From positions 50,840,001 through 50,904,000 of the forward strand of contig OX597820.1 in assembly GCA_951406725.2 (NCBI GenBank): 64,000 nucleotides of DNA, given 5' to 3'. This DNA comes from Octopus vulgaris. Taxonomy: Eukaryota. Shown one piece after another: positions 27,600-35,775 of the stretch. Position numbers and translations under genes: made by a program. Every line of letters begins with the position of its first letter. The stretch's first letter is position 1. Under the pieces are notes generated by a model. That model searched no databases and had not been told where the DNA came from. It saw nothing but the letters and a program-made list of their open reading frames with translations.

Positions 27600-29633
27600 A
27601 TTATTATTATTATTATTATTATTATTATTATTATTATTATTATTATTATTATTATTATTATTATTATTATTATTATTATTATTATTATTATTATTATTAT
27701 TATTATTATTATTATTATTATTATTATTATTATTATTATTATTATTATTATTATTATTATTATTATTATTATTATTATTATTATTATTATTATTATTATT
27801 ATTATTATTATTATTATTATTATTATTATTATTATTATTATTATTATTATTATTATTATTATTATTATTATTATTATTATTATTATTATTATTATTATTA
27901 TTATTATTATTATTATTATTATTATTATTATTATTATTATTATTATTATTATTATTATTATTATTATTATTATTATTATTATTATTATTATTATTATTAT
28001 TATTATTATTATTATTATTATTATTATTATTATTATTATTATTATTATTATTATTATTATTATTATTATTATTATTATTATTATTATTATTATTATTATT
28101 ATTATTATTATTATTATTATTATTATTATTATTATTATTATTATTATTATTATTATTATTATTATTATTATTATTATTATTATTATTATTATTATTATTA
28201 TTATTATTATTATTATTATTATTATTATTATTATTATTATTATTATTATTATTATTATTATTATTATTATTATTATTATTATTATTATTATTATTATTAT
28301 TATTATTATTATTATTATTATTATTATTATTATTATTATTATTATTATTATTATTATTATTATTATTATTATTATTATTATTATTATTATTATTATTATT
28401 ATTATTATTATTATTATTATTATTATTATTATTATTATTATTATTATTATTATTATTATTATTATTATTATTATTATTATTATTATTATTATTATTATTA
28501 TTATTATTATTATTATTATTATTATTATTATTATTATTATTATTATTATTATTATTATTATTATTATTATTATTATTATTATTATTATTATTATTATTAT
28601 TATTATTATTATTATTATTATTATTATTATTATTATTATTATTATTATTATTATTATTATTATTATTATTATTATTATTATTATTATTATTATTATTATT
28701 ATTATTATTATTATTATTATTATTATTATTATTATTATTATTATTATTATTATTATTATTATTATTATTATTATTATTATTATTATTATTATTATTATTA
28801 TTATTATTATTATTATTATTATTATTATTATTATTATTATTATTATTATTATTATTATTATTATTATTATTATTATTATTATTATTATTATTATTATTAT
28901 TATTATTATTATTATTATTATTATTATTATTATTATTATTATTATTATTATTATTATTATTATTATTATTATTATTATTATTATTATTATTATTATTATT
29001 ATTATTATTATTATTATTATTATTATTATTATTATTATTATTATTATTATTATTATTATTATTATTATTATTATTATTATTATTATTATTATTATTATTA
29101 TTATTATTATTATTATTATTATTATTATTATTATTATTATTATTATTATTATTATTATTATTATTATTATTATTATTATTATTATTATTATTATTATTAT
29201 TATTATTATTATTATTATTATTATTATTATTATTATTATTATTATTATTATTATTATTATTATTATTATTATTATTATTATTATTATTATTATTATTATT
29301 ATTATTATTATTATTATTATTATTATTATTATTATTATTATTATTATTATTATTATTATTATTATTATTATTATTATTATTATTATTATTATTATTATTA
29401 TTATTATTATTATTATTATTATTATTATTATTATTATTATTACTATTACTATTACTATTACTATTACTATTACTATTACTATTACTATTATTATTATTAT
29501 TATTATTATTATTATTATTATTATTATTATTATTATTATTATTATTATTATTATTATTATTATTATTATTATTATTATTATTATTATTATTATTATTATT
29601 ATTATTATTATTATTATTATTATTATTATTATT
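27600..29633. repeat. ~2.03-kb (TTA)n/(TAA)n array, pure except a (TACTAT)~8 island at ~29441-29488
   Basis: Directly visible; abuts the 3' end of Dong copy 1. Confidence 0.97.
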
Positions 29634-31797
29634 CAGTAGTTTTATTTTTATTTTTATAGCGTGCTTTCACTTCACTACCGAGCGCAGCTCTGTGTGCCTT
29701 GGGTATGTGCTGTGATTTGTTGTGATGCTCTGATGGTTATTGTATGGAAAGTGTTCTGCGTAGGATGTGGGCAGTGCCTAGTAGTGCACTTTTCTGTATG
29801 TTATATGTGTTTGTAAGTCCTGGTGTTTTTGTTATGTATTTGTCTGAATATTTTTTTATCATGCCTAATGCACCTACTATGATAGGAATTGTTTCTGTTT
29901 TCAGATTCCACATTCTAGTTACCTCTATTTCCAGGTCTTTGTATTTTGAGAGTTTCTCCATTTCTTTTAGAGACACGTTGTCATCTGCCGGTATTGATAC
30001 ATCAATTAAAAAGCATTTTTTTCTTCATGATCTCTGACAACTATATCTGGTCTGTTGGCCTTAATTTCTCTATCTGTGTGTATCGGCATATCCCAGAGTA
30101 TGGTTGCTTTCTCGTTTTCTGTGACCTTTTCTGGTGTGTGCCTATACCATCTTTTTTCTGTTGTTATTCCATAATGTTGGCATAGCTTCCAATGTATGTA
30201 GGTTCCAACTCTGTCATGTCTGTGAATATATTCCTTCTTAGCCAGGACTGGGCAGCTAGAGATAATATGATTTATTGTTTCTTGTCCATCTCCACATATT
30301 CTGCAGTTACTTGTAATATTTCTTTTCATTACATGTTTTTGGTAATTTCTGGTGGGGAGGCTTTGGTCTTGTGCTGCAATTAAAAATCCCTCTGTTTCTG
30401 CTTTGAGTCCTGAGCTTCTCAACCATTGCTGGGATTTTTCTTTGTCTATTTCTTTTGCGTTTAGTTTAGTGCAGTATTTACCATGAAGGGGCTTTTCTTG
30501 CCATCGTTTTATCATGGTTCGTTGCTGTTCTGTTTTTAGTTTGGATTTCATTTGTTTTATGGCTTTTGTTGTTTCTTCATCTTCTTCTTCTTCTTCATGT
30601 TTATTAGGTGGTATGATTTCTTGTTTGTATTTGTCAGCTTCCTTAAATACTGAGAACAGTTTTTTGTTTTGCTCGTGTTTTGCCGCTATCTGGATCAGTT
30701 TTCCTTCCTTCTGAAGTAGATATTTTTGCAGTCCTATGGTGGTTATTTTATAGTAGTTTTCCAGTTGTATAAGGCCTCTACCACCTTCCATACGTTGTAT
30801 ATATAGTCTTTCTATGTCAGATTTTGGGTGATGCATCCTAGATCCTGTCATTATTTTTCTTGTTTTCCTATCTATTTTGGTCAGTTCATTTCGTGTCCAG
30901 TTAAGGATATTGTAGCTGTAACTTATAACTGGGACAGCTAAAGTGTTGATACCTATTATCTTGTTTTTAGCATTGAGCTCTGTGTTTAGTATTGATCTAA
31001 CTCGTCTATAATATTCTTTTTTTATTTTCTCTTTCATTTGTGTGTGTTGTGTCTTATCTAGTTCATGGATTCCTAAGTATTTGTAAGTTTGGCTTTGGTC
31101 TAATTCTTTTATTTCATTGGTTTTATCTAGTGTGATGTTGTTACTCTTAACTAGTTTTCCTCTTTTCATGGTTACTTTGGCGCATTTTTCTAATCCAAAT
31201 TTCATATCTATTTCTTTGGTAAATCCATGAACTGTCTTTAATAGTGTTTCCAGCTGTTTGTCATTTGCAGCGTATAGTTTTAGGTCATCCATATATAAAA
31301 GGTGGCTGATCGTTTTGCCGTAACATTTATATCCGCATCCAGTTCTATTTAGCATATCAGATAGAGGTGACAGTGCCAAGCAGAAAAGGAGTGGAGAGAG
31401 CGTGTCTCCCTGGAATATTCCTCTTCTAATGGGGATGTCTTTGGTTTTCATGAGTCCCTCTTTTGTTTGGAGGTGTAGGACTGTTTGCCATTTATTCATA
31501 GAGTGCTCTATGAATTTTATGATTGTTGGTGCTACTTTGTTAATGGCTAGTGTTTCGAGGATCCATGTGTGGGGGATGCTATCAAACGCCTTTTTGTAGT
31601 CAATCCAGGCCATACTGAGGCCTTTCTTCTTTCTGTGGCTGTCTTCAGTTATGGCTTTATTAATCATTAGTTGATCTTTACAGCCATATGAGCCTTTGCG
31701 GCATCCTTTCTGCTCTTCTGGGAACAGTTTGTTTTCGTCCAGGTGCTTGTTCAGCCTTTGTGATATCACTGCAGTAAATGCCTTGAACATAGTAGGG
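29634..31797 (-). mobile_element. Young 5'-truncated R4/Dong-clade RLE non-LTR retrotransposon, copy 1
   Basis: RT motifs EQKGC, WIDYKKAFDS, GIFQGDTLSPLLF, HLLYMDDLKLY, YKYLG; CCHC knuckle CRIC..HIISSC; RHD; PD..D..K restriction-like endonuclease; ~100-nt 3' UTR joined to (AAT)n. Confidence 0.92.
29737..31797 (-). pseudogene. RT-zinc knuckle-RLE ORF of copy 1 (5'-truncated; one-base deletion in a T-run near 30016-30022)
   Basis: ORFs 30006-31805 and 29737-29976 join if the T7 run is read as T8, as in copy 2. Confidence 0.88.
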
Positions 31798-31815
31798 ATG
31801 TTCAATTATTATTCA

Positions 31816-34844: not shown

Positions 34845-35045
34845 TGATACCTATTATCTTGTTTTTAGCATTGAGCTCTGTGTTTAGTATTGATCTAACT
34901 TGATACCTATTATCTTGTTTTTAGCATTGAGCTCTGTGTTTAGTATTGATCTAACTTGAGCTCTGTGTTTAGTATTGATCTAACTTTGAGCTCTGTGTTT
35001 AGTATTGATCTAACTTTGAGCTCTGTGTTTAGTATTGATCTAACT
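34789..35045. repeat. Tandem re-copies of the truncated 5' end of copy 2 (3x56 bp, then 29+30+30 bp)
   Basis: All six units end in ..gtattgatctaact; copy 1 has this sequence once and continues cgtctata. Confidence 0.95.
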
Positions 35046-35775
35046 TTATTATATTATTATATATAATATTATTATTATTATTATTAATATAATATTATTA
35101 TTATTATTATTATTATTATTATTATTATTATTATTATTATTATTATTATTATTATTATTATTATTATTATTATTATTATTATTATTATTATTATTATTAT
35201 TATTATTATTATTATTATTATTATTATTATTATTATTATTATTATTATTATTATTATTATTATTATTATTATTATTATTATTATTATTATTATTATTATT
35301 ATTATTATTATTATTATTATTATTATTATTATTATTATTATTATTATTATTATTATTATTATTATTATTATTATTATTATTATTATTATTATTATTATTA
35401 TTATTATTATTATTATTATTATTATTATTATTATTATTATTATTATTATTATTATTATTATTATTATTATTATTATTATTATTATTATTATTATTATTAT
35501 TATTATTATTATTATTATTATTATTATTATTATTATTATTATTATTATTACTATTATTACTACTATTATTACTACTATTATTATTATTATTATTATTATT
35601 ATTACTATTATTATTATTATTATTATTATTATTATTATTATTATTATTATTACTATTATTATTATTATTATTATTATTATTATTATTATTATTATTATTA
35701 TTATTATTATTATTATTATTATTATTATTATTATTATTATTATTATTATTATTATTATTGTTGTTGTTGTTGTTG
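35046..35775. repeat. ~0.7-kb (TTA)n array with CTA interruptions, ending in (GTT)n
   Basis: Directly visible. Confidence 0.95.

What the first reader, a model, noticed from the sequence alone, without database searches (positions are those of the whole stretch)
27600..35775. Young R4/Dong retrotransposons embedded in kilobase-scale pure (TAA)n: possible telomerase-like microsatellite synthesis by the element RT
Seen: two almost identical RLE-type elements each end (..aactactg) directly in (AAT)n tracts of ~2.03 and ~1.66 kb that are nearly or fully perfect. A third tract of ~0.7 kb lies 5' of copy 2. Other AAT tracts in the window are under ~100 bp and interrupted. Known: Dong-type R4-clade elements target TAA repeats, but their tails and targets are normally short. 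Inference: the tracts are as young as the insertions and may be written by reiterative slippage of the RT on a short (UAA)n RNA 3' end before it copies the element body. Read left to right, the + strand is the first-strand cDNA: (TTA)n, body, (TTA)n, body, (TTA)n. This would be a retroelement-driven microsatellite generator.
Basis: partly seen in the sequence, partly recalled or inferred. Interest (0 to 1): 0.9.

Follow-up and report, generated by a model that had tools for sequence, protein, structure and literature searches.

The report
Stuttering retrotransposon beside kilobase TAA repeats
In this genome assembly a very young jumping gene sits in TAA repeats, and a few percent of its copies are flanked on either side by perfect repeat runs up to 4 kb long, likely written by stuttering DNA synthesis during insertion, although the run lengths are unconfirmed in raw reads.

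Summary
In detail: two 99.7%-identical, 5'-truncated RLE-type LINE copies lie in (TAA)n tracts of 2034, 1659 and 714 bp. The family has 1783 exact 3' ends genome-wide; 33 carry at least 51 pure units. Long tracts are enriched at young copies (8 of 176 tracts against 2 of 220; 1 of 219 after one reclassification). Long tracts are about as common at 5' ends (5 of 45) as at 3' ends (7 of 47), both sides tend to be long together, and they amplify local variants such as (TTG)276. New here: 5' junctions often carry tandem re-copies of the element's last 11-314 nt (12 of 18 full-length, 9 of 63 truncated), sometimes with TAA units sandwiched between, so repeat-adding stutter at insertion is evident in the assembled sequence. 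Best reading: reiterative synthesis at both junctions, probably by the element's RT. Still open: host repair, long pre-existing targets, and assembly inflation (lengths pile up unexplained at 579-614 units). No empty allele, raw long read or genome-wide background count was obtained.

The parts
27600..29633 (.). Tract 1: (ATT)614 + (ACT ATT)7 ACT + (ATT)49, at the 3' end of copy 1
29634..31798 (-). Copy 1: 5'-truncated RLE-type LINE (RT, CCHC, PD..D nuclease, short 3' UTR); one-base frameshift in a T run near 30010-30020
31783..31815 (.). 5' junction of copy 1: 8-bp inverted repeat (31783-31790 / 31798-31805, snap-back-like), then a short re-copy with 3 ATT units
   Evidence: compared with a natural full-length copy
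31816..33474 (.). Tract 2: perfect (ATT)553 between the copies
33475..34845 (-). Copy 2: 5'-truncated at 1371 bp, frame open
34846..35045 (-). Tandem re-copies of copy 2's own 5'-terminal 56, 56, 29, 30 and 30 nt; 1 nt of microhomology at the first jump
35046..35759 (.). Tract 3: short irregular start, (ATT)152, then ACT-interrupted part; followed by (GTT)5
35780..36490 (-). 3' remnant of an older RLE-type element (31% amino-acid identity over 35861-36346), whose tail likely was the original target
   Evidence: target role inferred

Best explanation
These are two young copies of an RLE-type, Dong-like LINE lying in a TAA microsatellite, and the kilobase pure tracts were likely written during or just after insertion by stuttering DNA synthesis at both junctions, probably by the element's own reverse transcriptase. 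Steps: (1) shown: copies sit in TAA tracts, typically with about 10 pure units 3' and 20 units 5'. (2) Inferred from R2 biology: the nuclease nicks the tract and the RT primes on the nick. (3) Shown in sequence: at the template's 5' end synthesis often restarts 15-56 nt back (up to 315), up to about 18 times, with 0-1 nt of homology in most cases and often a few extra C/T bases, and TAA units are sometimes added between such restarts. (4) Inferred: in a few percent of events the same slip-and-restart runs on (TAA)n, on the RNA tail or on the target DNA, for hundreds of units and also amplifies local variants (TTG, ACT, ATC-ATT). (5) Inferred: long tracts attract further insertions and unequal exchange, giving tandem copies, and later shrink.
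For: 33 of 1783 exact 3' ends carry 51 or more pure units. Tracts with 51 or more units: 8 of 176 near young copies against 2 of 220 elsewhere in loci not chosen for long tracts (p=0.026); one of the 2 proved to be part of a young copy's 3' tract, giving 1 of 219 (p=0.012, reclassified after inspection). Older subfamily 0 of 29, another TAA-tailed family 1 of 29, random DNA 0 of 24. Re-copy of 11 nt or more at 12 of 18 full-length and 9 of 63 truncated 5' junctions, chance 0.6%; 15 of 21 first jumps have 0-1 nt of homology. L137 has 41-43 nt x4 then 21 nt x14. TAA units lie between two copies of the element's 5' end in 5 of 110 junctions by script, 3 of them clear (L076, L115, L208), control 14 of 3680. 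A long 3' tract predicts a long 5' tract: 10 of 26 against 1 of 40, p=2e-4. Long tails show no clustering on the tree. R2 proteins template-jump and form snap-back and head-to-tail products (PMC11371274, passages); R2 5' junctions with repeated short duplications are listed in PMC3774820 (passages).
Against: No step identifies the polymerase. The clear TAA sandwiches hold only 4-5 units; the step to 600 units is extrapolation. Correlated long tracts on both sides and enrichment at young copies are also expected if rare long tracts pre-exist and decay. Pure blocks pile up at 579-614 units (8 of 30 blocks of 150 or more, P=4e-4 to 9e-4) with a second group near 270-340, which random slippage does not predict. 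Arrays of identical truncated units with different spacers (L068, 8 x 534 bp; L086, 5 units sharing one 78-nt stutter, spacers 72-585 units) show that DNA-level duplication also acts here. The control sample is small, and at 100 or more units the difference was 3 of 176 against 1 of 220 (p=0.33) before reclassification and 4 of 176 against 0 of 219 (p=0.039) after it. 98% of 3' ends have fewer than 51 adjacent pure units.
Confidence: 0.4

Rival explanations
1. Assembly or basecalling inflation: the tracts are real but their kilobase lengths are created or homogenised by data processing.
For: Unexplained pile-up at 579-614 units and blocks near 270-340, including a (TTG)276 block next to (TTA)278 at L066. 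Perfect purity over 1.8-4 kb. Two long-tract loci end at assembly gaps (L086, L087). 28 homopolymer indel cells in 34 young bodies of 1.9 kb; 4 of 7 full-length copies have split frames.
Against: A per-tract artefact should hit old and unlinked tracts equally, yet they show 1-2 of about 220. Lengths run past any single ceiling (736, 1003, 1352 units). Tract length does not track neighbouring body length (rho -0.05, n=13). The 5' re-copies sit exactly at truncation points, which processing would not explain.
Confidence: 0.2
2. The element only supplies the nick; host repair (polymerase-theta end joining or break-induced replication) does the iterative synthesis that makes both the 5' re-copies and the TAA expansions.
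For: Both sides are long together. Target-like variants are amplified or repeated ((TTG)276 at L066, (ACT)31 at L061, (GTT)3 on both sides of (ATT)529 at L088, hexamer blocks in the window and at L092). Whole-unit arrays (L068, L086). Iterative templated insertion by polymerase theta and repeat expansion in break repair are recalled, not read here.
Against: Re-copies end repeatedly at the template's 5' end, mostly with 0-1 nt of homology, and in full-length copies after a few extra C/T bases, as expected of an RT running off its template. Nontemplated addition at R2 junctions is discussed in PMC11331408 (passages), which leaves open R2 protein or a cellular polymerase.
Confidence: 0.17
3. Rare long pure TAA tracts arise by ordinary microsatellite expansion and, being large targets, are hit preferentially; the element writes nothing long.
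For: Predicts long tracts on both sides and tandem copies (7 of 28 long-tail loci have head-to-tail young copies). ACT interruptions lie on both sides of the window's insertion, and the 614-unit block lies beyond them. About 0.5% long tracts in the background would suffice (estimate), which 0 of 24 random and 1 of 219 control tracts cannot exclude.
Against: Among 9 loci with a 3' run of 300 or more units and no young copy directly 5', 8 have at most 99 pure units on the 5' side (L085, 379 and 100 units, adjoins a young copy on its 3' side and was left out), so copies sit at the edge of the long tract rather than at random within it. TAA sandwiches show addition at the junction.
Confidence: 0.12
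4. One reading: RT slips only on a short (UAA)n RNA tail before copying the body, and the window is one first-strand concatemer.
For: Several 3' tracts are pure from unique flank to element (L062 582, L065 337, L078 579, L082 602 units). Slippage on 3' repeats is reported for UnaL2, and UAA repeats matter for I-factor initiation (PMC3747384, passage and reference title).
Against: 5' tracts are long about as often (5 of 45 against 7 of 47; two tracts lie between tandem copies and count on both sides); non-TAA blocks occur inside long tracts; the window's copies come from two source variants. It needs extra template jumps to explain the 5' tracts.
Confidence: 0.11

Closest known systems
Dong (Bombyx mori), DongAg, DongBg; 'Dong-R4' LINEs of octopuses
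   Same: TAA microsatellite target (PMC3812793, passage); single ORF with RT and C-terminal nuclease. Dong-R4 has the most recently active LINE insertions in an Octopus vulgaris annotation (1129 insertions; PMC13282606, part 1 of 3 and passages).
   Different: No passage seen mentions kilobase pure tracts or tandem 5' re-copies. Placement beside named Dong or R4 proteins was not tested.
R2 elements (R2Bm, R2Tg)
   Same: Only solved-structure matches, residues 444-1194, E 5e-36. Template jumping, snap-back and tandem products; repeated short duplications at 5' junctions.
   Different: R2 targets 28S rDNA; the duplications listed there are mostly of upstream target sequence and a few rounds long, whereas here the element's own end is re-copied up to about 18 times.
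I factor and UnaL2 3'-repeat slippage
   Same: RT slippage on a short terminal repeat is proposed to change tail length.
   Different: Different clades; tails recalled as a few units long and 3' only.
Telomerase
   Same: Works like it in the proposed step: reach the template boundary, realign, copy again.
   Different: No dedicated template RNA, no chromosome-end role; repeat addition by this protein is unmeasured.

Membership tests
RLE-type (R2-superfamily) non-LTR retrotransposon | Single long ORF with RT | tested here: met
   1213-aa ORF in a natural 3.96-kb copy, YMDD at 695; Pfam RVT_1 in copy 1
RLE-type (R2-superfamily) non-LTR retrotransposon | C-terminal CCHC knuckle and PD..D/E nuclease | tested here: met
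   CCHC at 1025, PD..D at 1110; aligns with R2 proteins to residue 1194
R4 clade / Dong | Insertion into (TAA)n | tested here: met
   TAA tract found on both sides in 45 of 47 unselected copies; in 2 the script found no 5' tract
R4 clade / Dong | RT phylogeny groups with named R4 and Dong proteins | not tested
   No hit among the 120 listed carried an R4 or Dong name; no labelled reference was on hand
R4 clade / Dong | No R2-type N-terminal zinc finger (feature recalled) | tested here: inconclusive
   A simple C2H2-type pattern found nothing and R2 matches start at residue 438; no profile scan of the N-terminus was completed
R4 clade / Dong | HDV-like ribozyme at the 5' end (shown for B. mori Dong, PMC3774820) | tested here: inconclusive
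   Rfam scan of 371 bases gave only two chance matches
Telomerase-type repeat polymerase | Processive repeat addition from a short template | not testable with these tools
   Sequence footprints only
Telomerase-type repeat polymerase | Dedicated template RNA and chromosome-end location | tested here: not met
   Copies are interstitial and dispersed; the protein is an R2-like ORF

The most novel reading that the evidence does not exclude
A Dong-like RLE reverse transcriptase is a repeat-addition polymerase in vivo: at insertion it writes up to 4 kb of pure (TAA)n on either side and new minisatellites from its own 5' end, making this active family a generator of micro- and minisatellites and of its own future targets.
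Probability: 0.35. Interest if true: 0.82.

Novelty: new variant of a known kind. Interest (0 to 1): 0.58.

Why it matters
If real, a non-LTR element expands its own target by hundreds of units in one event. That is a one-step route to very long microsatellites, a feedback loop for target supply, and a natural bridge between retroelement RTs and telomerase-style repeat addition that can be tested with one purified protein. The 5' stutter also bears on junction fidelity in R2-based gene insertion. If the lengths are an assembly artefact, what remains is a known kind of element with an unusually frequent 5' stutter.

Tried and rejected
Genome-wide count of long pure TAA tracts without an element: not obtained, so the pre-existing-target rival stays open; only small samples stand in for it. 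Empty allele: contigs of 4 public runs (at most 3 samples) were laid on the left flank, but the repeat was skipped and nothing bridged it; no raw-read run and no RNA holder was listed. Single long-tailed master copy: rejected, long tails need 9 changes on the tree against a shuffled mean of 9.0, though support is weak. One RNA copied twice in the window: rejected. Tract length mirroring body length: no correlation. A hard 1.8-kb ceiling: rejected by compound 5' tracts of about 800-860 units and pure runs of 1003 and 1352. The search for the second subfamily's 3' ends returned nothing. Rows dropped: the two arrays (L068, L086) from the 26-locus set; the query loci where stated; one 367-unit block beside a gap and the later-seen 1352 block from the 30-block pile-up list, which was compiled by hand. 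Three loci are in both the selected and unselected sets. The unselected set leans to the youngest variant (39 of 47). Earlier-findings look-ups were empty. Three papers were not held; PMC13580325 had no relevant passage; no supplements were read.

Full report
Observation. The window holds (ATT)614-(ACT/ATT block)-(ATT)49 at 27600-29633, copy 1 at 29634-31798, a perfect (ATT)553 at 31816-33474, copy 2 at 33475-34845, and a 714-bp tract at 35046-35759. The copies differ by 3 substitutions and 1 indel in 1370 bp. Other AAT runs in the window have at most 18 pure units, and 24 tracts in 200 kb of arbitrarily chosen genome at most 23. All lengths are those of the assembly.

The element. A natural full-length copy is about 3.96 kb and encodes 1213 aa with an RT (YMDD), a CCHC knuckle and a PD..D nuclease motif. 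Its only solved-structure matches are R2 proteins. The genome (2.80 Gb) has 1783 exact copies of the 3' end, many identical over 357 bp. The host is probably an octopus; this is recalled from its repeats and genome size and was not tested. Dong elements target TAA (PMC3812793, passage), and Dong-R4 has the most recently active LINE insertions in an O. vulgaris annotation (PMC13282606, part 1 of 3 and passages; also passages of PMC9115989 and PMC8967140). I call it Dong-like; no tree with named R4 or Dong proteins was made.

Are long tracts tied to young copies? 33 of 1783 3' ends, at 28 loci, have 51 or more pure adjacent units. Controls: an older subfamily 0 of 29, another TAA-tailed family 1 of 29, random DNA 0 of 24. 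Across 176 loci not chosen for long tracts, 8 of 176 tracts near young copies and 2 of 220 others had 51 or more units (p=0.026). One of those two was the edge of an (ATT)1352 run in a young copy's 3' compound tract, giving 1 of 219 (p=0.012, after inspection). The enrichment is real but rests on small numbers, and no genome-wide background count was obtained. Long tails are scattered over both subfamilies, and some long-tailed copies are identical over 1 kb to short-tailed ones.

Against a 3'-only model. In 47 unselected copies the longest pure run had a median of 10 units on the 3' side and 20 on the 5' side; runs of 51 or more occurred in 7 of 47 and 5 of 45 (two tracts lie between tandem copies and count on both sides). 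Copies picked for a long 3' tail had a long 5' tract in 10 of 26 cases against 1 of 40 for short-tailed copies (p=2e-4). Long tracts contain non-TAA blocks: (TTA)278-(TTG)276-(TTA)~295 at L066, (ACT)31 at L061, (GTT)3 on both sides of (ATT)529 at L088, and hexamer blocks in the window and at L092. In the window, L088 and L092 the long pure block lies beyond the interruptions, away from the element. The window's copies carry different alleles of a family polymorphism (59 against 17), so they came from two sources.

Evidence for stuttering synthesis. Copy 2's 5' end is followed by re-copies of its last 56, 56, 29, 30 and 30 nt. A re-copy of 11 nt or more follows 12 of 18 full-length and 9 of 63 truncated 5' ends (chance 0.6%); 15 of 21 first jumps have 0-1 nt of homology, and full-length ends often add 4-6 C/T bases first. 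In a second set of 30 full-length ends, 7 had two or more extra copies of one terminal motif, up to 10. L137 ends in 41-43 nt x4 and 21 nt x14, a new minisatellite. In 3 clear cases of 110 junctions (5 by script; control 14 of 3680), 4-5 TAA units lie between two copies of the element's 5' end, so TAA is added at the junction. Copy 1's junction has a snap-back-like 8-bp inverted repeat. R2 proteins template-jump and form snap-back and tandem products (PMC11371274, passages), and repeated short duplications occur at R2 5' junctions (PMC3774820, passages). That the element's RT does this here is inferred.

DNA-level events and a caution. L068 has 8 units of one 534-bp truncation with spacers of about 70-116 units; L086 has 5 units sharing one 78-nt stutter, with spacers of 72-585 pure units, and ends at a gap. 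A shared stutter implies duplication after insertion. Pure blocks of 150 or more units pile up at 579-614 (8 of 30; P=4e-4 to 9e-4), with another group near 270-340 and none between 380 and 528. Neither slippage nor random insertion predicts this; it may be a processing artefact or an unknown ruler. Public contigs could not bridge the tract, so neither empty alleles nor true lengths were seen.

Verdict. Best explanation (0.40): repeat-adding stutter at both junctions at insertion, probably by the RT. Rivals: assembly inflation 0.20, host repair 0.17, pre-existing long targets 0.12, RNA-tail-only slippage 0.11. The element type and short-range RT slippage are known (PMC3747384, passage). Nine paper searches showed no report of kilobase TAA tracts or multi-round 5' re-copies for Dong; the library lacks most subscription papers and Repbase reports, and no supplements were read. 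New variant of a known kind; interest 0.58.

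Noticed in passing
L092 (G000:C2, about 99234200-99239270): (ATT)1352, 4.06 kb pure and the longest run seen, followed by about 19 ATC-ATT hexamers and about 0.8 kb of interrupted tract before a young copy's 3' end.
   Followed up: partly
L137:3998-4440: New minisatellite at a 5' truncation: 41-43 nt x4 then 21 nt x14. 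As in the window (56 then 30), the period roughly halves.
   Followed up: partly
L068/L089 and L086: Arrays of 8 and at least 5 identical truncated units separated by TAA tracts of different length.
   Followed up: partly
47 unselected copies: 5' tracts (median 20 pure units) are longer than 3' tracts (median 10), suggesting that the protein needs about 20 units upstream and cuts near the tract end.
   Followed up: partly
window about 30010-30020 and family-wide: A T7/T8 site in the nuclease domain splits the family 38 to 33; the T7 form shifts the frame. Real variant or long-read error is unresolved.
   Followed up: partly
L077, L120, L110, L106: Internal template jumps: 122 to 295, 485 to 1114-1187, a 50-nt re-copy from 246 nt back, and a 314-nt re-copy at a full-length 5' end.
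   Followed up: no
many loci, e.g. L082, L085, L109, L238: Young copies often insert into the TAA tails of a few other recurrent element families.
   Followed up: partly
window 35780-36490, 12517-13654, 63246-63443: Older diverged RLE-type remnants (31-50% amino-acid identity in tblastn).
   Followed up: no
window about 25500-27550: Degenerate multi-copy element left of tract 1 (high contig depth); looks Penelope-like from recall, untested.
   Followed up: no
window 41247-41614: Two tandem 184-bp copies of a SINE-like repeat also seen near 24060-24250.
   Followed up: no
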